19,489 nucleotides of DNA from a virus (Duplodnaviria > Heunggongvirae > Uroviricota > Caudoviricetes): the IMG/VR virus record IMGVR_UViG_2609459850_000001. One strand, written 5' to 3'. The first letter of the stretch is position 1, and the number at the start of each line of letters is the position of its first letter. Of this stretch, positions 4,235 to 16,347 are shown in pieces. Below the pieces are notes generated by a model. It saw only the letters and a list, made by a program, of their open reading frames with translations. It was not told where the DNA came from and ran no database searches. The translations under genes and the position numbers were made by a program.

Positions 4235-5742
4235 TGGCAATTCTTGATGATGTGATTGGCGTTTTTTCACCAGGATGGAAAGCGGCAAGGCTGCGTTCCC
4301 GTGCGGTGATCCAGGCTTATGAGGCCGTAAAAACGACGCGGACACACAAAGCCCGACGGGAGAACCGAACTGCCGACCAGTTAAGCCAGTACGGGGCCGT
4401 GTCGTTACGTGAGCAGGCTCGTTACCTTGATAACAACCACGATCTGGTCATTGGTGTATTTGACAAGCTGGAAGAACGGGTGGTGGGGAAAAACGGGATT
4501 ATTGTCGAGCCACATCCGGTATTACGCAATGGGGCCATTGCCCGTGATCTGGCAGCGGAGATACGTACCCGATGGAGTGAATGGTCTGTCAGTCCGGAGG
4601 TCACCGGGCAGTTTACCCGTCCGATGCTGGAACGTCTGATGCTGCGTACCTGGCTGCGCGATGGTGAGGTGTTTGCCCAGATGGTTTCCGGGCGCATAAA
4701 CAGCCTGACGCCTTCTGCCGGTGTTCATTTCTGGCTGGAGGCGCTCGAGCCGGACTTTATTCCCATGACCAGTGATGAGAGCAACAGGCTGAATCAGGGC
4801 GTGTTTGTTGATGACTGGGGGCGTCCCGAAAAATATCTGGTGTATAAAAGCCGTCCCGTATCCGGGCGGCAGATGGAAACCAAAGAAGTGGATGCAGAGC
4901 GAATGCTGCATCTTAAATTTGTTCGCCGTCTGCACCAGATGCGCGGGACGTCTTTGTTGTCCGGTGTGCTGATCCGCCTCAGTGCTCTGAAAGAGTATGA
5001 AGATTCTGAGCTGACTGCAGCAAGGATCGCCGCTGCTCTGGGGATGTACATCCGGAAAGGCGACGGACAGAGCTATGAAACGGATGGTAATGACAGCAAG
5101 GAGAATGAACGCGAGCTTACCATTCAGCCAGGCATTATTTACGACGATCTGAAACCCGGCGAAGAAATCGGAATGGTGAAGTCGGATCGCCCCAATCCTA
5201 ACCTTGAAACTTTTCGTAATGGTCAGTTGCGTGCCGTGGCTGCGGGCAGTCGTCTGAGTTTTTCCAGTACAGCGCGCAACTATAACGGCACTTACAGCGC
5301 CCAGCGTCAGGAGCTGGTTGAATCTACTGATGGCTACCTGATCCTGCAGGACTGGTTTATTGGTGCCGTCACCCGCCCGATGTACCGTGCCTGGCTGAAA
5401 CAGGCTGTGGTATCCGGTGTTATCAGGCTACCCCGCGATCTGGACCGATCTTCACTGTATACCGCGGTGTATTCCGGACCGGTGATGCCGTGGATTGACC
5501 CTGTTAAGGAGGCTGAGGCCTGGAAAATTCAGATTCGTGGTGGAGCGGCGACAGAATCAGACTGGGTACGTGCAGGTGGTCGTAATCCTGATGATGTCAA
5601 ACGTCGGCGCAAGGCCGAAATTGATGAAAACCGCAAGCTGGATCTGGTATTTGATACCGATCCGGCCAGTGATAAAGGAGGCAGCAGTGCCGCAACGAAA
5701 CGACAGGAGCCGCAGCACACCGACGACCAGTCCGAAGAATAA
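4234..5742 (+). CDS. portal protein (gpB-like)
   Basis: 502 aa from the ATG at 4234, which overlaps the W stop (TGATG). The track's 4162 start is a GTG inside W. Size and position are typical for a lambdoid portal. Confidence 0.85.
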   Translation: MAILDDVIGVFSPGWKAARLRSRAVIQAYEAVKTTRTHKARRENRTADQLSQYGAVSLREQARYLDNNHDLVIGVFDKLEERVVGKNGIIVEPHPVLRNGAIARDLAAEIRTRWSEWSVSPEVTGQFTRPMLERLMLRTWLRDGEVFAQMVSGRINSLTPSAGVHFWLEALEPDFIPMTSDESNRLNQGVFVDDWGRPEKYLVYKSRPVSGRQMETKEVDAERMLHLKFVRRLHQMRGTSLLSGVLIRLSALKEYEDSELTAARIAAALGMYIRKGDGQSYETDGNDSKENERELTIQPGIIYDDLKPGEEIGMVKSDRPNPNLETFRNGQLRAVAAGSRLSFSSTARNYNGTYSAQRQELVESTDGYLILQDWFIGAVTRPMYRAWLKQAVVSGVIRLPRDLDRSSLYTAVYSGPVMPWIDPVKEAEAWKIQIRGGAATESDWVRAGGRNPDDVKRRRKAEIDENRKLDLVFDTDPASDKGGSSAATKRQEPQHTDDQSEE

Positions 5743-5755
5743 TTCCTGGTTCAGG

Positions 5756-7714
5756 ATGCAGGCAGGTCACCAGAGTGACGCGGATATTTATATTTATGAC
5801 GAGATTGGTTTCTGGGGTGTTACGGCGAAGCAGTTTATCAGTGATCTGAATGCACTGGGCGATATCACCCACATTAATCTCCATATTAATTCACCGGGTG
5901 GCGATGTCTTTGAAGGCATCGCCATTTTTAATGCACTGAAAACACATGGTGCGTCCATTACCGTTTATGTCGACGGTGTGGCGGCGTCAATGGCGTCGGT
6001 CATTGCGATGGTGGGAAACCCGGTCATTATGCCGGAAAACTCCTTCATGATGATTCATAAACCATTTGGCTTTACGGGCGGTGATGCGGAGGACATGCGC
6101 ACCTATGCCGACCTGCTCGATAAAGTTGAGGCGGTTCTGTTACCCGCTTATGCACAGAAAACCGGGAAAACCACCGATGAAATTGCTGCCATGCTGGCGG
6201 ATGAGACCTGGATGTCCGGTGCCGAATGTCTGGCACAGGGATTTGCTGATCAGGTGACACCAGCCGTTAAGGCAATGGCATGTATTCAGTCAAAACGTAC
6301 AGAGGAATTTAAAAAGATGCCGGAATCCATTCGAAATATGATTACTCCGCCACGCAACAGTGCTCCACGCGTACAGGATGATGGACCTGCAGCCTCCCGG
6401 ACGCCAGTGCAGGCAGCAGCACCCGTGGTGGATGAAAACAGCATCCGTGCGCAGGTCCTGGCAGAGCAAAAAGCGCGTGTAAACGGTATTAATGCTCTGT
6501 TTGCCATGTTTGGCGGGCGTTATCAGTCGTTGCAGGCTCAGTGTCTTGCCGATCCTGAATGTTCGCTGGAGCAGGCCCGCGAAAAGCTGTTGAACGAGAT
6601 GGGGCGCGAGTCCACGCCATCCAATAAAAATACCCCGGCTCATATTTATGCCGGTAACGGTAATTTTGTGGGGGACGGGATCCGCCAGGCGCTGATGGCG
6701 CGCGCCGGGTTTGAAAAAACTGAACGTGATAATGTCTACAACGGGATGACCCTGCGTGAATATGCCCGTATGTCACTGACTGAACGTGGTATTGGTGTTT
6801 CCAGTTATAACCCGATGCAGATGGTCGGTGCGGCGTTCACACACAGTACGTCTGACTTCGGTAATATTCTGCTGGATGTTGCGAACAAAGCCATTCTGCA
6901 GGGCTGGGAAGATGCCCCTGAAACCTATGAACAGTGGACGCGGAAAGGTCAGTTGTCTGATTTTAAAATTGCCCATCGTGTGGGTATGGGGGGCTTCAGT
7001 GCTCTGCGTCAGGTGCGTGAAGGGGCAGAATATAAATACGTCACCACCGGAGATAAACAGGCCACTATTGCACTGGCGACCTATGGCGAGCTGTTCAGTA
7101 TCACCCGTCAGGCCATTATCAATGATGATCTGAATATGCTGACCGATGTCCCGATGAAGCTGGGCCGTGCGGCGAAATCCACTATTGCCGATCTGGTTTA
7201 TGCCATTCTGACGTCTAACCCGAAAATCTCCACAGATAATGTAAGTCTGTTCGATAAAGCGAAACATGCAAACGTACTGGAGAGCGCGGCAATGGACGTG
7301 GCATCGCTGGATAAAGCCCGCCAGTTGATGCGCGTTCAGAAAGAGGGTGAGCGTCATCTGAATATTCGTCCTGCGTTCGTACTGGTACCGACGGCGATGG
7401 AGTCTGTTGCTAACCAGGTCATTCGCTCCTCAAGTGTCAAGGGGGCTGACATTAACGCCGGTATTATTAACCCGGTGAAAGATTTTGCGACCGTTATTGC
7501 AGAGCCTCGTCTTGATGATAACAGCCAGACCACCTTCTACCTGGCTGCGTCCAAAGGCTCCGATACGATTGAAGTGGCTTATCTCAACGGTGTGGATACG
7601 CCATATATTGATCAGATGGAGGGCTTCAGTGTGGATGGCGTGACAACGAAAGTGCGTATTGACGCTGGTGTTGCGCCAGTTGATCACCGCGGCCTGGTGA
7701 AATGTACGGCGTAA
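5756..7714 (+). CDS. fused prohead protease (ClpP/S49-like) - scaffold - major capsid protein (tripartite capsid gene)
   Basis: N-terminal segment IYIYDEIGFWG...INSPGGDVFEGIAIFNALK...VDGVAASMASVIAM...MMIHKPF is protease-like. The middle is Ala/Gln/Glu-rich, and the C-terminal roughly 250 aa is capsid-like. The start is taken as the first ATG after the portal stop; the track's 5495 is a TTG inside portal. The start is uncertain (weak RBS). Confidence 0.75.
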   Translation: MQAGHQSDADIYIYDEIGFWGVTAKQFISDLNALGDITHINLHINSPGGDVFEGIAIFNALKTHGASITVYVDGVAASMASVIAMVGNPVIMPENSFMMIHKPFGFTGGDAEDMRTYADLLDKVEAVLLPAYAQKTGKTTDEIAAMLADETWMSGAECLAQGFADQVTPAVKAMACIQSKRTEEFKKMPESIRNMITPPRNSAPRVQDDGPAASRTPVQAAAPVVDENSIRAQVLAEQKARVNGINALFAMFGGRYQSLQAQCLADPECSLEQAREKLLNEMGRESTPSNKNTPAHIYAGNGNFVGDGIRQALMARAGFEKTERDNVYNGMTLREYARMSLTERGIGVSSYNPMQMVGAAFTHSTSDFGNILLDVANKAILQGWEDAPETYEQWTRKGQLSDFKIAHRVGMGGFSALRQVREGAEYKYVTTGDKQATIALATYGELFSITRQAIINDDLNMLTDVPMKLGRAAKSTIADLVYAILTSNPKISTDNVSLFDKAKHANVLESAAMDVASLDKARQLMRVQKEGERHLNIRPAFVLVPTAMESVANQVIRSSSVKGADINAGIINPVKDFATVIAEPRLDDNSQTTFYLAASKGSDTIEVAYLNGVDTPYIDQMEGFSVDGVTTKVRIDAGVAPVDHRGLVKCTA

Positions 7715-7737: not shown

Positions 7738-7757
7738 GGCCCGTAAGGGCTTTTTTT
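7738..7757 (+). terminator. intrinsic terminator-like hairpin after the capsid gene (GGCCC-GTAA-GGGC + T7)
   Basis: GC stem with a GNRA-type GTAA loop followed by seven T residues, 24 nt after the capsid stop. A second 7-bp hairpin (CAGCCCC-TGAAC-GGGGCTG, 7769-7787) follows without a T-run. Confidence 0.45.
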
Positions 7758-7800
7758 GTACCTGAAATCAGCCCCTGAACGGGGCTGTGCGGAGACAGTT

Positions 7801-8403: not shown

Positions 8404-8982
8404 ATGAAGGGGCTTGAGAATGCCATCCGCAATCTGAACAGCCTTGATACCCGTATGGTGCCACAGGCCAGCGCATGGGCGATAAACCGTGTGGCACAGA
8501 AAGCGGTCTCGGTTGCCACCCGGCAGGTTGCCGGGAATACCGTTGCGGGAGATAACCAGGTGAAAGGGATCCCCCTGAAACTGGTACGTCAGCGTGTCCG
8601 GGTGTTTAAAGCCAGTCCGTCAGGAAAAATGACGGCCAGGATCCGCGTTAACCGGGGCAATCTGCCCGCCATTAAGCTGGGGACAGCCCGGGTCAGACTG
8701 GCCCGGCGTGGTGGAAAACTGCAGTACCGTGGCAGTGTGCTGAAGGTGGGTAAATATCTTTTCCGGGATGCGTTTATTCAGCAACTGGCGAATGGTCGCT
8801 GGCATGTGATGCGACGTATTGATGGCAAAAATCGTTACCCCATTGATGTGGTGAAAATCCCGCTGTCCGGACCGCTGACACAGGCATTTGAAGATGCCCG
8901 CGACCACATCATTGCTGCGGAAATGCCGAAACAGCTGGGGTATGCACTGAAACAACAACTGAGGTTATGGCTGACCCGATGA
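8404..8982 (+). CDS. Z: tail completion protein Z
   Basis: 192 aa, the same length as lambda gpZ. RBS AGAGGTG upstream; lies immediately 5' of U with ATGA overlap. Confidence 0.8.
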   Translation: MKGLENAIRNLNSLDTRMVPQASAWAINRVAQKAVSVATRQVAGNTVAGDNQVKGIPLKLVRQRVRVFKASPSGKMTARIRVNRGNLPAIKLGTARVRLARRGGKLQYRGSVLKVGKYLFRDAFIQQLANGRWHVMRRIDGKNRYPIDVVKIPLSGPLTQAFEDARDHIIAAEMPKQLGYALKQQLRLWLTR

Positions 8983-9390: not shown

Positions 9391-10134
9391 ATGACCACAC
9401 CAAATCCACTGGCAAAGACGAAAGGTGCGGGGACGACGTTCTGGATGTATACCGGCAACGGCGATGCGTTTGCGAACCCTTTGTCGGACACTGACTGGCT
9501 GCGTCTTGCGATGGTGAAGGATCTGCAACCTGGCGAAATGACCGCTGATGCAGAAGATGACACTTATCTCGATGATGAAGATGCAGACTGGAAAACGACA
9601 ACCCAGGGGCAGAAATCCGTTGGTGATACTTCGGCGACGCTGGCCTGGCGTCCGGGTGACAGCGGGCAGAAAAAACTGGTTCAGTTGTTCGACTCCGGTG
9701 AAGTCTGCGCGTTTCGTATCAAATATCCCAACGGCACTGTTGATGTTTTCCGTGGCTGGCTGAGCTCACTGGGTAAAACCATTGCCTCAAAAGACGTGAT
9801 GACCCGCACTGTGAAAATCAGCGGTGTGGGGCGTCCGTATCTGGCAGAGGAAGGCACTGAAACCGTGAGCGTTACCGGGCTGACAGTATCACCGGCGTCT
9901 GCCAGTGTAAAAGTGGGAGCAACCACCACGCTGACCTTTACAGTAAAACCTGACGGAGCCAGTGACAAAGCGATCAGTGTGCATTCGTCAGATCCACAGA
10001 CTGCCACGGTTACCCTGAACGGACTTGTGGCCACGGTAAAAGGCGTGAAGCAGGGCAGTGTCAGCATTGTGGGCATGACCGCTGACGGGAATTTTGTGGC
10101 TGTGACTGCGGTGACTGTCAGCGCAGCAGGTTAA
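9391..10134 (+). CDS. V: major tail protein V with C-terminal Ig-like (Big_2) domain
   Basis: 247 aa with AAGGAGGT RBS. N-terminus MTTPNPLAKTKGAGTTFWMY and ...YPNGTVDVFRGW... match lambda gpV. The C-terminal roughly 90 aa are Thr/Val/Ser-rich, typical of an Ig-like domain. Confidence 0.9.
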   Translation: MTTPNPLAKTKGAGTTFWMYTGNGDAFANPLSDTDWLRLAMVKDLQPGEMTADAEDDTYLDDEDADWKTTTQGQKSVGDTSATLAWRPGDSGQKKLVQLFDSGEVCAFRIKYPNGTVDVFRGWLSSLGKTIASKDVMTRTVKISGVGRPYLAEEGTETVSVTGLTVSPASASVKVGATTTLTFTVKPDGASDKAISVHSSDPQTATVTLNGLVATVKGVKQGSVSIVGMTADGNFVAVTAVTVSAAG

Positions 10135-10154
10135 CAGGACGATACTCATCATTT

Positions 10155-10178
10155 GCCCCGGTTATGCGGGGCTTTTTT
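10155..10178 (+). terminator. intrinsic terminator-like hairpin after V (GCCCCG-GTTATG-CGGGGC + T6)
   Basis: 6-bp GC stem followed by TTTTTT, 21 nt after the V stop and immediately before the G RBS. Confidence 0.5.
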
Positions 10179-10194
10179 GCAGGTGGAGAACATG

Positions 10195-10581
10195 ATGTTT
10201 CTGAAACAGGACACGTTTAATTATGAAAAACAGTCCGTGGTGCTCAGTGAGCTGTCCGGGCTGCAGAGAATTGAATATCTGACGTTTGTTCAGCAGCGAA
10301 CGGCAAAGTTTGATGCCGGGGAGGGAGAACTGCCGGAGGCTGAACGACAGATTGCTTTTCTGCGGATGGGGATGGATATCAATGCCTGGCTGGTTTCCCG
10401 CTCACTGTGGAATGCGGATCAGTCTAAGGATGTAGAGACGCTTTGCGCATCCGTTATTACAACATGGTCGTATGATGCCCTGGGTGCGGGGGCGGAGATG
10501 GTTCTGTCGCTGAGCGGTATGGGGGCCATTGATAATGCCGTGGATGATGAGCATGAGGCGCTGACGCCGGAAAAGTCCTGA
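10195..10581 (+). CDS. G: tail assembly chaperone G
   Basis: The N-terminus MFLKQDTFNYEKQSVVLSELSGLQRIEYL matches lambda gpG (MFLKTESFEH…LSELSALQRIEHL). GGAGA lies 5 nt upstream of the ATG at 10195. The track's 10153 start falls inside the terminator. Confidence 0.85.
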   Translation: MFLKQDTFNYEKQSVVLSELSGLQRIEYLTFVQQRTAKFDAGEGELPEAERQIAFLRMGMDINAWLVSRSLWNADQSKDVETLCASVITTWSYDALGAGAEMVLSLSGMGAIDNAVDDEHEALTPEKS

Positions 10582-10919
10582 CGCGGGAAATGCAGTTTGT
10601 CATGCGGCTTGCCCGGGAGTTCCGGCGGGCAGACTGGCGGCGGATGCTGTCGGAAATGTCGGCCACTGAGCTTGGTGAGTGGGGCGATTATTTCCGGATG
10701 CAGAGCTTCAGTGATGTGTGGATGGATGCGCAGTTTGCCTCGCTGAAGGCATTGATCGTGAGAATGGTGTCCGGCAGCAGTGATGCTGCGGTGGCTGATT
10801 TCAGCCTTTTACCGGAAGAGAACGGGATACCGGAGCGAACGGACGAAGAACTGATGCATCTTGGGGAAGGTATTTCCGGAGGTGTGCGTTATGGACCAGA
10901 TAGCCAACCTGGTCATTGA
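10195..10919 (+). CDS. GT: tail assembly chaperone G-T, predicted -1 programmed frameshift product (shift around 10569-10575)
   Basis: The -1 frame is open from 10557 to the stop at 10917-10919 and overlaps the last 8 codons of G. The heptamer G GAA AAG (10569-10575) is one nucleotide different from the lambda site G GGA AAG. Gene order G-T-H as in lambda. Confidence 0.65.
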
Positions 10920-14294: not shown

Positions 14295-14993
14295 ATGCAG
14301 GATATTCCACAGGAAACACATCATGAGACGACACGCCTCACTCAGTCAGCCCAGGTGGTGCTCTGGGAAATCGATCTGACAGAGGTCGGTGGTGAACGTT
14401 ATTTTTTCTGTAATGAGCAGAACGAAAAAGGTGAGCCGGTTATCTGGCAGGGGCGGCAGTATCAGGTATACCCCATTCAGGGGACGGGATTTGAACTGAA
14501 CGGCAAGGGCAGTGCTGCCCGTCCGACACTGACGGTTTCTAACCTGCACGGCATGGTCACCGGGATGGCGGAAGACCTGCAGAGTCTGGTCGGAGGAATG
14601 GTGGTCCGGCGTAAGGTTTACGCCCGTTTTCTGGATGCGGTGAACTTCGTCAACGGAAACAGTGACGCCGATCCGGAGCAGGAGGTGATCAGCCGCTGGC
14701 GCATCGAGCAGTGCAGCGAACTGAGCGCGGTGAGTGCCTCTTTTGTACTGTCCACGCCGACGGAAACGGACGGTGCCGTTTTTCCGGGACGTATCATGCT
14801 GGCCAACACCTGCACCTGGACCTATCGCGGTGATGAGTGCGGTTATCACGGTCCGGCGGTCGCGGATGAATATGATCAGCCGACGTCCGATATCACGAAG
14901 GATAAATGCAGCAAATGCCTGAGCGGCTGTAAGTTTCGCAATAACGTCGGCAACTTTGGCGGCTTCCTTTCCATTAACAAACTTTCGCAGTGA
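14295..14993 (+). CDS. L: minor tail protein L
   Basis: 232 aa, the same length as lambda gpL, and near-identical over long stretches (SVVLWEIDLTEVGGERYFFCNEQNEKGEP, CTWTYRGDECGY, KCSKCLSGCKFRNNVGNFGGF). AGGAGG RBS. Confidence 0.95.
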   Translation: MQDIPQETHHETTRLTQSAQVVLWEIDLTEVGGERYFFCNEQNEKGEPVIWQGRQYQVYPIQGTGFELNGKGSAARPTLTVSNLHGMVTGMAEDLQSLVGGMVVRRKVYARFLDAVNFVNGNSDADPEQEVISRWRIEQCSELSAVSASFVLSTPTETDGAVFPGRIMLANTCTWTYRGDECGYHGPAVADEYDQPTSDITKDKCSKCLSGCKFRNNVGNFGGFLSINKLSQ

Positions 14994-14998
14994 ATCCC

Positions 14999-15742
14999 AT
15001 GACAGAGACAGAATCAGCGATTCTGGCGCACGCCCGGCGATGTGCGCCAGCGGAGTCGTGCGGCTTCGTGGTGAGAACACCGGAGGGGGAAAGATATTTT
15101 CCCTGCGTGAATATCTCCGGTGAGCCGGAGGAGTATTTCCGGATGTCGCCGGAGGACTGGCTGCGGGCAGAGATGCAGGGTGAGATTGTGGCGCTGGTCC
15201 ACAGCCACCCCGGTGGTCTGCCCTGGCTGAGTGAGACCGACCGGCGGCTGCAGGTGCAGAGTGATTTGCCGTGGTGGCTGGTTTGCCGGGGGGCGATTCA
15301 CAAGTTCCGCTGTGTGCCACATCTTTCCGGGCGGCGCTTTGAGCACGGGGTGACGGACTGTTACACGCTGTTCCGGGATGCTTACCATCTGGCGGGGATT
15401 GAGATGCCGGATTTTCATCGCGAGGATGACTGGTGGCGTAACGGTCAGAATCTCTATCTGGATAATCTGGAGGCCACAGGGCTGTATCAGGTGCCGTTGT
15501 CAGCGGCGCAGCCGGGCGATGTGCTGCTGTGCTGTTTTGGTTCATCGGTGCCGAATCATGCCGCCATTTACTGTGGTGACGGCGAGCTGCTGCACCATAT
15601 TCCTGAACAACTGAGCAAACGAGAGAGGTATACCGACAAATGGCAGCGACGCACACACTCCCTCTGGCGTCACCGGGCATGGCACGCATCTGCCTTTACG
15701 GGGATTTACAACGATTTGGCCGCCGCATCGACCTTCGAGTGA
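14999..15742 (+). CDS. K: tail assembly protein K (JAMM/MPN metalloprotease-like + NlpC/P60-like domains)
   Basis: The JAMM signature H-S-H-x7-S-x2-D (HSHPGGLPWLSETD) is present in the sequence, and a Cys (VTDCYTLF) / His pair sits in the C-terminal half. Start set at the first ATG (14999); a GTG at 14990 overlaps the L stop. The 3' end overlaps I by 103 nt in another frame. Confidence 0.85.
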   Translation: MTETESAILAHARRCAPAESCGFVVRTPEGERYFPCVNISGEPEEYFRMSPEDWLRAEMQGEIVALVHSHPGGLPWLSETDRRLQVQSDLPWWLVCRGAIHKFRCVPHLSGRRFEHGVTDCYTLFRDAYHLAGIEMPDFHREDDWWRNGQNLYLDNLEATGLYQVPLSAAQPGDVLLCCFGSSVPNHAAIYCGDGELLHHIPEQLSKRERYTDKWQRRTHSLWRHRAWHASAFTGIYNDLAAASTFE

Positions 15743-16287: not shown

Positions 16288-16347
16288 TGAAAAACGTTTT
16301 ATGTGAAACCACCTCCGGGCGGTTTTGTCGTTTATGGAGCGTTAGGA

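What the first reader, a model, noticed from the sequence alone, without database searches (positions are those of the whole stretch)
10155..10178. Second terminator-like hairpin directly after major tail gene V
The same logic as after the capsid gene: a 6-bp GC stem plus T6 follows V, the most abundant tail protein, and precedes G. This pattern after both high-copy structural genes suggests a shared stoichiometry-control mechanism. It also argues that the true G start is the downstream ATG (10195), not the track's 10153.
Basis: partly seen in the sequence, partly recalled or inferred. Interest (0 to 1): 0.45.

Follow-up and report, generated by a model that had tools for sequence, protein, structure and literature searches.

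The report
Known terminator hairpin after tail-tube gene
The hairpin is real and is a textbook-looking transcription terminator between the tail-tube gene V and the chaperone gene G of a common E. coli lambdoid prophage, but public phage records already annotate it and its role in setting protein ratios is still untested.

Summary
GCCCCG-GTTATG-CGGGGC (10155-10172) plus T6 (10173-10178) lies 20 nt after the V stop, in the 60-nt V-G spacer. A site this strict is expected 0.01 times per strand by chance. The window is an mEp460/cdtI-type lambdoid prophage module found in 1843 of 5426 complete E. coli genomes. GenBank records of phages mEp460 and Ayreon already annotate a rho-independent terminator at exactly this place and another after the protease/capsid gene. 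N15 and HK225 annotate a stem-loop between their V and G homologues. All 87 close relatives examined keep the stem and a T5-T7 run. A further 142 loci (Gifsy-1/Fels-1-like, N15-like) all keep a 6-bp GC hairpin, some with every pair flipped, but mostly without a good U tract. Lambda, phi80 and Stx phages have a 10-15 nt gap and no hairpin. The G start claim holds: TTG 10153 is not a start, because indels break that frame in relatives. RefSeq uses ATG 10195 and GenBank uses ATG 10192. The stoichiometry-control idea is plausible, by analogy with T7 Tphi, but it is unproven and is weakened by Q antitermination and by lambda lacking the site. Verdict: already known and of low interest.

The parts
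9391..10134 (+). Major tail tube gene V (247 aa; stop TAA 10132-10134)
   Evidence: 55% identity over the full length to lambda gpV. Pfam Phage_TTP_12 plus Big_2. RefSeq CDS in an identical copy.
10135..10154 (+). 20-nt spacer between the V stop and the hairpin, long enough for the hairpin to fold clear of a ribosome terminating at the V stop (inference)
   Evidence: Sequence. 3 of 20 positions vary among 40 distinct close relatives.
10155..10172 (+). Terminator hairpin: arms GCCCCG (10155-10160) and CGGGGC (10167-10172), loop GTTATG (10161-10166)
   Evidence: The arms carry no substitutions in 40 distinct close relatives, and variation falls on 10161, 10163 and 10166. The commonest allele has C at 10166, giving a 7-bp stem with a TTAT loop at -15.0 kcal/mol.
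10173..10178 (+). U tract (T6)
   Evidence: The run length is T5-T7 in all 87 close relatives and is never interrupted.
10185..10188 (+). Shine-Dalgarno GGAG of G (within GGTGGAGA 10182-10189)
   Evidence: Sequence. It lies 6 nt before ATG 10195 and 3 nt before ATG 10192.
10195..10581 (+). Tail assembly chaperone gene G (128 aa). An in-frame ATG at 10192 is an alternative start. TTG 10153 is rejected as a start.
   Evidence: RefSeq start equals 10195. Pfam Phage_TAC_2 aligns profile position 1 to residue 1. Homologues start M-F-L. GenBank mEp460 and Ayreon start at 10192.
10590..10919 (+). T reading frame (-1 relative to G), the downstream half of the G-T frameshift product
   Evidence: Pfam Phage_tail_T. 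Annotations.
7738..7757 (+). Companion terminator-like hairpin GGCCC-GTAA-GGGCT plus T7, 23 nt after the stop of the ClpP-protease/major-capsid fusion gene (5687-7714)
   Evidence: Annotated as a rho-independent terminator in mEp460 and Ayreon. Kept in 79 loci, one of which has a stem substitution.
7769..7787 (+). Second GC hairpin in the capsid gap, CAGCCCC-TGAAC-GGGGCTG, with no U tract, 3 nt before the SD of the cement-protein gene. It shares the GCCCC...GGGGC core with the V-G hairpin.

Best explanation
The element is a Rho-independent (intrinsic) terminator-type hairpin in the V-G spacer of the late operon of an mEp460/cdtI-type lambdoid prophage. On the RNA, GCCCCG pairs with CGGGGC directly ahead of a run of six U. 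RNA polymerase without the phage antiterminator should release there. Polymerase carrying the Q-type antiterminator should mostly read through, and it must do so, because the essential tail genes G, T, H, M, L, K, I and J lie downstream with no convincing promoter of their own. A fraction of transcripts therefore ends right after V. Read-through transcripts that are cut further downstream would be trimmed back by 3'-exonucleases to the same hairpin. Both routes would leave V-containing message more abundant and longer-lived than message for the low-copy tail genes. The same arrangement follows the protease/capsid gene. What is shown: the motif, its position, its orientation, its conservation and the absence of a downstream promoter-like site. 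What is inferred: that termination is partial, that the hairpin protects 3' ends, and that this sets the V excess.
For: All sequence features of an intrinsic terminator are present and are far above chance. A classical terminator discriminant, using a formula recalled from memory, is clearly positive here (+27.5) and in the commoner 7-bp allele (+40.9). The stem and a T5-T7 run are kept in all 87 close relatives, while the loop and the flanks vary. A hairpin sits at the same place in 142 of 142 further loci and in Citrobacter, Symbiopectobacterium and Serratia. It shows compensatory changes: all six pairs are flipped in the N15 type, pairs 5 and 6 in Serratia, and pair 7 in Symbiopectobacterium. 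Symbiopectobacterium carries an unrelated canonical terminator (AGCAGCG...CGCTGCT plus T7) in the same gap, which looks like convergence. Independent annotators called it a terminator in mEp460, Ayreon and N15. The two largest gaps between the head and tail genes both carry such sites, while most other gaps are 5-11 nt. There is no + strand promoter-like site between 10179 and 14376, and promoter-like sites are depleted overall, 5 found against 14.3 expected. A precedent exists: T7 Tphi lies directly after major capsid gene 10 and transcript abundance drops downstream of it (PMC6938266). Leaky phage terminators are widely used to balance expression (PMC9163698).
Against: No transcript data exist for this element. 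Q-loaded polymerase suppresses hairpin formation (10.1101/651190), so termination during lytic growth may be negligible. Lambda, phi80, mEp043, Stx/VT1-Sakai and Kp4865-4 have no V-G hairpin yet need the same V excess, so the site is dispensable for stoichiometry in principle, and translation efficiency can do that job. Most hairpin-bearing relatives lack a proper U tract, which suggests that the hairpin rather than termination is the conserved feature. [quoted passage not shown]
Confidence: 0.5

Rival explanations
1. Guard terminator. The site exists to stop polymerases that did not load the antiterminator, such as those from moron promoters between the lysis and terminase genes or from spurious promoters, so that tail genes stay silent in the lysogen. 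In lytic growth it is fully read through and has no effect on stoichiometry.
For: The late operon has a Q-type antiterminator upstream (ydfT). Q-loaded polymerase ignores terminator hairpins. Several independently expressed morons (cspI, ymcF, ynfN, gnsB) sit upstream of the terminase in the identical prophage. This role is one of the two proposed for phage L intra-operon terminators (PMC8022706).
Against: It does not explain why the sites fall precisely after the two highest-copy structural genes rather than at the operon entrance. It does not explain hairpins without U tracts in N15, Gifsy-1 and Fels-1. Lambda manages without one here.
Confidence: 0.22
2. The conserved functional unit is the GC hairpin itself, acting after transcription. 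It could serve as a processing or stability determinant, either a 3' cap for V message or a 5' cap for processed G-T-H message. It could also tune ribosome access to the G start 13-22 nt downstream. On this view the U tract of the mEp460/cdtI clade is a secondary addition.
For: A hairpin is present in 142 of 142 Gifsy/Fels/N15-type loci with free loop variation, but U tracts are poor (TTCTATGG, TTTGCGGG, TTCCCCC, CTTTCTGG) and discriminant scores are negative or borderline. In the capsid gap of this window a second GCCCC...GGGGC hairpin without a U tract sits 3 nt before the next gene's SD, downstream of the real terminator. The same two-hairpin layout occurs in the Symbiopectobacterium V-G gap. 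In the N15 type the hairpin begins only 4-5 nt after the V stop and abuts the SD.
Against: In this window's clade the T5-T7 run is strictly kept, which points to termination or to U-tract-dependent function. Hairpins with short U tracts can still terminate weakly. No processing-site data exist. Compact gaps force any hairpin to lie near the SD.
Confidence: 0.23
3. There is no regulatory element. The region is the 5' end of G, translated from TTG 10153 as in the annotation track, or the hairpin is a chance palindrome.
For: An open frame runs from TTG 10153 into G.
Against: Frame-breaking indels occur and the TTG is lost in relatives. No SD lies at a workable distance from 10153. Homologues and the Pfam profile start at M-F-L. 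RefSeq and GenBank start at 10195 and 10192. The chance expectation for the motif is 0.01.
Confidence: 0.03

Closest known systems
Annotated 'rho-independent terminator' between the major tail protein and minor tail protein genes of phage mEp460 (JQ182728, 8751-8774) and of phage Ayreon (MF807953)
   Same: It is the same element at the same position. The mEp460 sequence is GCCCCGGTTATTCGGGGCTTTTTT, differing only at the base corresponding to 10166. The same records also annotate the terminator after the protease/capsid gene.
   Different: Nothing of substance differs. The window carries the G allele at 10166, giving 6 bp and a 6-nt loop rather than 7 bp and a 4-nt loop. These annotations are predictions and have not been tested.
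Phage N15 stem-loop 'putative rho-indep. transcription terminator' between gene 13 (V homologue) and gene 14 (G homologue), and the HK225 stem_loop
   Same: It occupies the same intergenic position, with a 6-bp all-G:C stem of about -12.4 kcal/mol that precedes the SD of the G homologue.
   Different: The arms are swapped (CGGGGC...GCCCCG) and the loop is a GNRA-type tetraloop. The hairpin starts only 4-5 nt after the stop codon. There is no U tract (TTCCCCCC), and the discriminant is negative.
T7 terminator Tphi, directly after major capsid gene 10
   Same: It is a hairpin terminator placed right after the most abundant structural gene. It is leaky, essential genes lie downstream, and transcript abundance drops measurably after it (PMC6938266).
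   Different: It acts on T7 RNA polymerase, involves no antiterminator, and has been demonstrated experimentally. The site in this window has not been tested.
Intra-late-operon terminator after the procapsid gene module of P22-like phage L
   Same: It is a predicted intrinsic terminator inside a single-promoter, antiterminated lambdoid late operon. The same two candidate roles were proposed for it (PMC8022706).
   Different: It has a different gene context (a podovirus with no tail tube gene), and its authors state that the role is unknown.
Phage lambda late operon
   Same: The gene order is homologous (Z-U-V-G-T-H). Lambda has a GC hairpin, ATGGCCC-TTCG-GGGCCAT, after major capsid gene E.
   Different: Lambda's V-G gap is 15 nt and has no hairpin. 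Its E-FI hairpin has only a weak U tract.
Hairpins that give differential mRNA stability or attenuation within operons, such as the stem-loop after the major pilin gene papA in the pap operon and REP hairpins in malEFG (from my own knowledge, not checked here)
   Same: In these cases a major-subunit gene is followed by a stable hairpin, and the upstream message outlasts or outnumbers the downstream message.
   Different: These are bacterial operons without processive antitermination. The resemblance is recalled from memory, not tested.

Membership tests
Rho-independent (intrinsic) terminator | G+C-rich stem of about 5-14 bp with a short loop (3-8 nt) | tested here: met
   There are 6 G:C pairs and a 6-nt loop at -12.5 kcal/mol. 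The commonest allele has 7 bp and a 4-nt loop at -15.0 kcal/mol.
Rho-independent (intrinsic) terminator | Uninterrupted U-rich tract immediately 3' of the stem | tested here: met
   T6 lies at 10173-10178 directly after the stem. The run is T5-T7 in all close relatives.
Rho-independent (intrinsic) terminator | Lies in non-coding sequence downstream of a stop codon and is oriented with transcription | tested here: met
   It starts 20 nt after the V stop, within a 60-nt gap. The reverse strand has no T run. Frame-breaking indels in relatives show the gap is non-coding.
Rho-independent (intrinsic) terminator | Structure maintained in relatives, with stem conservation or compensatory change | tested here: met
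   The arms carry no substitutions in 40 distinct close sequences. Flipped or compensated pairs occur in N15-type, Serratia and Symbiopectobacterium loci. Homology between the two arm orientations is not certain.
Rho-independent (intrinsic) terminator | RNA 3' ends or polymerase release at the U tract, in vivo or in vitro | not testable with these tools
   No transcript data were available, and literature searches found none for this phage group.
Leaky stoichiometry-setting terminator (T7 Tphi type) | Essential downstream genes depend on read-through because they have no promoter of their own | tested here: met
   No + strand promoter-like site lies between 10179 and 14376. Tail genes G through J follow with small gaps. 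This is a consensus scan only.
Leaky stoichiometry-setting terminator (T7 Tphi type) | Measured drop in transcript abundance across the site during late expression | not testable with these tools
   This needs RNA-seq or Term-seq of an induced lysogen.
Leaky stoichiometry-setting terminator (T7 Tphi type) | Present wherever the same stoichiometric demand exists | tested here: not met
   It is absent from lambda, phi80, mEp043, VT1-Sakai/Stx2a and Kp4865-4, whose gaps are 10-15 nt.
Curated RNA families (Rfam 15) | A match at the gathering score | tested here: not met
   There were no matches in the whole window.
Coding sequence (N-terminal extension of G from TTG 10153) | Reading frame and start codon preserved in relatives, and homologues share the extension | tested here: not met
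   Indels of +1, -1 and -2 nt occur and the TTG is lost in relatives. Homologues and the Pfam profile start at M-F-L.

The most novel reading that the evidence does not exclude
The element under selection is not the terminator but a small GC hairpin (GCCCC...GGGGC or its flipped form). Lambdoid late operons place it just 5' of the ribosome-binding site of the gene that follows a high-copy structural gene. It occurs with or without a U tract and sometimes sits behind a separate canonical terminator. This would make it a distinct post-transcriptional module for mRNA processing, stability or translation insulation, and in this clade it has merely fused with a terminator.
Probability: 0.2. Interest if true: 0.4.

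Novelty: already known. Interest (0 to 1): 0.15.

Why it matters
If the site does attenuate or stabilise message, it helps explain how a single-promoter late operon makes roughly two hundred tail-tube subunits per virion (a lambda figure from my own knowledge) but few copies of the downstream tail proteins. It would also show how much of that ratio is set at the RNA level rather than by translation. That question is open for intra-operon terminators in antiterminated phage operons; PMC8022706 says their roles 'are not known'. The element itself is already annotated and its kind is familiar. The practical value here is a corrected G start (10195 or 10192, not 10153) and a clear comparative picture: hairpin widespread, U tract clade-specific, both absent in lambda.

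Tried and rejected
1. Larger structure around the hairpin. A 71-nt fold is not unusual (z = -0.7). The CAUCAU/AUGAUG closing helix is weak and clade-specific, so I did not pursue it.

2. Rfam. There is no match anywhere in the window.

3. Bidirectional terminator. Rejected, because the minus strand has no T run.

4. TTG 10153 as the G start. Rejected.

5. Literature search for transcript mapping in mEp460, cdtI, N15 or lambda late operons. Nothing usable was found. The lambda ribosome-profiling paper I recalled (PNAS 2013) is not held in the library.

6. Symbiopectobacterium G as a query in viral contigs. It returned no relatives.

7. MAFFT alignment of both hairpin orientations. It aligned the 3' arm of the N15 type with the 5' arm of the mEp460 type, so I did not run formal pair counting on it. 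The compensatory changes were read directly from the sequences.

8. Local conservation statistics. The stem varies at 1 of 12 positions, against about 27% of neighbouring third-codon and spacer positions. This is suggestive but too small a sample to be significant on its own.

Full report
**1. What is there**

The window carries the head and tail genes of a lambdoid prophage. The order is terminase small and large subunits, portal, a ClpP-protease/major-capsid fusion (5687-7714), a cement protein, two small head-tail proteins, Z, U, V (9391-10134), G (10195-10581), T, H, M, L, K, I and the start of J.

The region around the finding is 100% identical to phages mEp460_ev081 and PhiR55_1, and 96-98% identical to mEp460, cdtI, Ayreon and others. 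It occurs in 1843 of 5426 complete E. coli genomes.

- It is the best terminator-like site in the window.
- It folds at -12.5 kcal/mol with 97% ensemble occupancy.
- It is the only site in the window that passes a strict criterion, for which 500 dinucleotide shuffles give 0.01 sites per strand.
- It lies 20 nt after the V stop, and its T run ends 6 nt before the GGAG of G.

Three gaps in the head-tail gene chain reach 60 nt or more: capsid to cement protein (86 nt), V to G (60 nt) and I to J (60 nt). The first two carry clear hairpin-plus-T-run sites. The third has only an imperfect hairpin.

**2. It is already annotated**

- The GenBank record of mEp460 (JQ182728) carries a 'rho-independent terminator' feature at 8751-8774. 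This maps base for base onto window 10155-10178 and reads GCCCCGGTTATTCGGGGCTTTTTT.
- The same record carries another terminator feature after the protease/capsid gene, which maps to window 7738-7757.
- Phage Ayreon (MF807953) annotates both as well.
- Phage N15 (NC_001901) annotates a 'putative rho-indep. transcription terminator' stem-loop between gene 13 (major tail protein) and gene 14 (G homologue). HK225 annotates a stem_loop at the same place.

All of these are predictions. I found no transcript mapping for any of them.

**3. Conservation**

Close relatives. I examined 87 close relatives (G 92-100% identical; 80 viral contigs and 7 genomes), which give 40 distinct sequences when the window itself is included.

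- The two 6-nt arms show no substitutions. One sequence has a 1-nt deletion.
- The T run is always T5-T7.
- Variation concentrates on 10161, 10163 and 10166, which are the loop and the potential seventh pair, and on the flanks.
- The commonest allele has C at 10166, giving a 7-bp stem with a TTAT loop at -15.0 kcal/mol. The window's G allele is a slightly weaker minority form.

More distant relatives.

- All 142 loci retrieved with Fels-1 G and N15 G have a 6-bp all-G:C hairpin in the V-G gap. So do Citrobacter, Symbiopectobacterium and Serratia prophages.
- Two arm orientations occur. GCCCCG...CGGGGC is found in mEp460/cdtI, Gifsy-1, Fels-1 and Citrobacter. CGGGGC...GCCCCG is found in N15, HK225 and relatives with 56-66% identical G proteins. 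In the second form all six pairs are flipped.
- Serratia has GCCTGC...GCGGGC, with two pairs swapped and one wobble. Symbiopectobacterium has GCCCCGC...GCGGGGC, with the seventh pair swapped.
- Loops vary freely (GCGA, GTGA, GAAA, GTCA, TGTG, TTCG, TCCG, GTTC, GCTC and others).
- Pairing, rather than a fixed sequence, is therefore what is kept. The two orientations may, however, have arisen independently.

The U tract is not widely kept. The tails are TTCTATGG (Gifsy-1), TTTGCGGG (Fels-1), TTCCCCCC (N15) and CTTTCTGG. A classical terminator discriminant, using a formula recalled from memory with ViennaRNA energies so that it serves only as a relative guide, gave the following:

| Site | Score |
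|---|---|
| This window, V-G hairpin | +27.5 |
| 7-bp allele of the same hairpin | +40.9 |
| Capsid-gap terminator | +23.2 |
| Symbiopectobacterium upstream terminator | +14.7 |
| Symbiopectobacterium second (GC) hairpin | +11.3 |
| One N15-type variant (L223) | +2.8 |
| Gifsy-1 | -3.4 |
| Fels-1 | -2.5 |
| N15 and HK225 | -10.9 |
| L245 | -18.5 |
| Serratia | -11.9 |

Lambda itself has a 15-nt V-G gap with no hairpin. Phi80, mEp043, Eeyore, VT1-Sakai, an Stx2a phage and Klebsiella phage Kp4865-4 also lack one. The hairpin is conserved across several lambdoid lineages. A true terminator exists mainly in the mEp460/cdtI clade. Neither exists in lambda.

**4. The G start**

- TTG 10153 would encode the hairpin and T run as protein.
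- Relatives carry a +1 T insertion (L048), a -1 C deletion (L035), or lose two bases and the TTG itself (L087-L091). Each of these breaks that frame.
- Lambda, Gifsy-1, Fels-1, N15, phi80 and the others all start G at a single ATG reading M-F-L.
- Pfam Phage_TAC_2 aligns its position 1 to residue 1 of the 10195 start.
- RefSeq PGAP uses 10195 in an identical copy. GenBank mEp460 and Ayreon use the adjacent in-frame ATG at 10192.
- SD spacing favours 10195 (6 nt against 3 nt). However, one relative (L092) has ATGATT and so can use only the first ATG.
The exact codon is not settled.

**5. How it probably works**

An identical prophage carries a Q-type antitermination gene (ydfT) followed by lysis genes, several morons and then the terminase. 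The structural genes are therefore almost certainly part of an antiterminated late operon.

Q-loaded RNA polymerase narrows the RNA exit channel and prevents terminator hairpins from forming (10.1101/651190). Essential tail genes follow the site, and the next + strand promoter-like match is at 14376. Promoter-like sites are depleted in the window overall, 5 found against 14.3 expected. The site must therefore be read through during lytic growth.

My best reading (confidence about 0.5) has three steps.

- It is a genuine intrinsic terminator that stops unmodified polymerase.
- It lets most Q-modified polymerase pass.
- Through residual termination, and as a 3'-exonuclease barrier after downstream cleavage, it leaves V-containing message in excess over G-T-H-...-J message.

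T7 Tphi after capsid gene 10 is the demonstrated precedent for terminator-based dosing (PMC6938266). Leaky terminators are common in phage transcriptomes (PMC9163698).

There are two serious rivals.

- It is only a guard against non-antiterminated transcription in the lysogen. This is one of the two roles suggested for the phage L intra-operon terminator, whose authors say the roles 'are not known' (PMC8022706).
- The GC hairpin is the functional unit, acting after transcription on RNA stability, processing or access to the G ribosome-binding site, and the U tract is a clade-specific addition.

The second rival draws support from the hairpins without U tracts. It also draws support from a second GCCCC...GGGGC hairpin in this window's capsid gap (7769-7787). 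That hairpin has no U tract, sits 3 nt before the next SD and lies downstream of the real terminator. It is kept in 79 loci, though a few of them carry single changes within it. The pattern GCCCC-N3-9-GGGGC occurs only twice in the window, once in each large gap, against 0.26 expected. Symbiopectobacterium has the same layout of terminator followed by GC hairpin in its V-G gap.

**6. Verdict**

The element and its kind are already known and annotated in public records, so novelty is 'already known' and interest is low (0.15). The most novel reading that remains open is that a small GC hairpin module, distinct from termination, is what lambdoid late operons conserve at these junctions (probability about 0.2).

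Noticed in passing
window 7769-7787: There is a second stable GC hairpin, CAGCCCC-TGAAC-GGGGCTG (-13.2 kcal/mol, no U tract), in the capsid gap. It lies 12 nt after the terminator's T7 run and 3 nt before the SD (GGAG 7791-7794) of the cement-protein gene. It shares the GCCCC...GGGGC core with the V-G hairpin. That pattern occurs only twice in the window, once in each large gap, against 0.26 expected.
   Followed up: partly
window 16307-16324: The 60-nt I-J gap holds an imperfect hairpin, AACCACC-TCCG-GGCGGTT (one A/C mismatch), followed by a U-rich tail TTGTCGTTTAT. The local fold has z = -1.9 and the terminator discriminant is negative.
   Followed up: partly
window 10147-10152 and 10192-10197: CAUCAU just upstream of the hairpin is complementary to the tandem start codons AUGAUG of G, so the minimum-energy fold closes a long-range helix around the terminator that would cover the start codons. 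The helix is weak, is not significant (z = -0.7), and is absent outside this clade. Relative L092 has ATGATT instead of ATGATG.
   Followed up: partly
L122 (N15) 368-400; L188-L267: In N15-type V-G gaps the 5' arm CCGGGG can pair either with GCCCCG (the annotated stem-loop) or with CCCCGG immediately next to the SD of the G homologue. RNAfold picks the second option for several variants. The hairpin starts only 4-5 nt after the V stop, so a terminating ribosome would melt it.
   Followed up: no
window 10793-10810: The mEp460 record annotates a third 'rho-independent terminator' inside the T reading frame. Here it reads GGCTG-ATTT-CAGCC plus TTTT (-8.0 kcal/mol). It has only four U and a negative discriminant, so it is a doubtful call.
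   Followed up: partly
window 10569-10575: The likely G-T -1 frameshift site reads G GAA AAG, just before the G stop at 10579-10581, rather than lambda's G GGA AAG. The -1 frame from there runs into the T ORF (10590-10919). This comes from reading the sequence only, and the lambda heptamer is recalled from memory.
   Followed up: no
L099-L111 (genome-contig hits): Assemblies labelled Pseudomonas, Shewanella, Kitasatospora, Neobacillus, Oceanobacillus, Chromatium, Leeuwenhoekiella and others contain identical lambda V-G sequence on short or roughly 48-kb low-coverage contigs. This is almost certainly lambda control-DNA contamination, not prophages.
   Followed up: no
L094 1330-1510 (Candidatus Symbiopectobacterium): The V homologue lacks the C-terminal Ig-like domain. 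Its V-G gap carries a canonical terminator with an unrelated stem (AGCAGCG-CGCGT-CGCTGCT plus T7), followed immediately by GCCCCGC-GTAC-GCGGGGC.
   Followed up: partly
L003 (lambda) 2160-2200: Lambda has a GC hairpin ATGGCCC-TTCG-GGGCCAT (-12.3 kcal/mol) right after major capsid gene E, with only a weak U tract (TGTTTCTCT). Lambda therefore shares the capsid-side hairpin but not the V-side one.
   Followed up: partly
window, whole: Sigma-70 promoter-like sites are depleted (5 found, 14.3 +/- 3.6 in shuffles), while loose terminator-like sites are enriched (36 found, 17.4 +/- 4.9). A 447-aa antisense ORF at 14346-15689 overlaps L, K and I, and is probably spurious.
   Followed up: no
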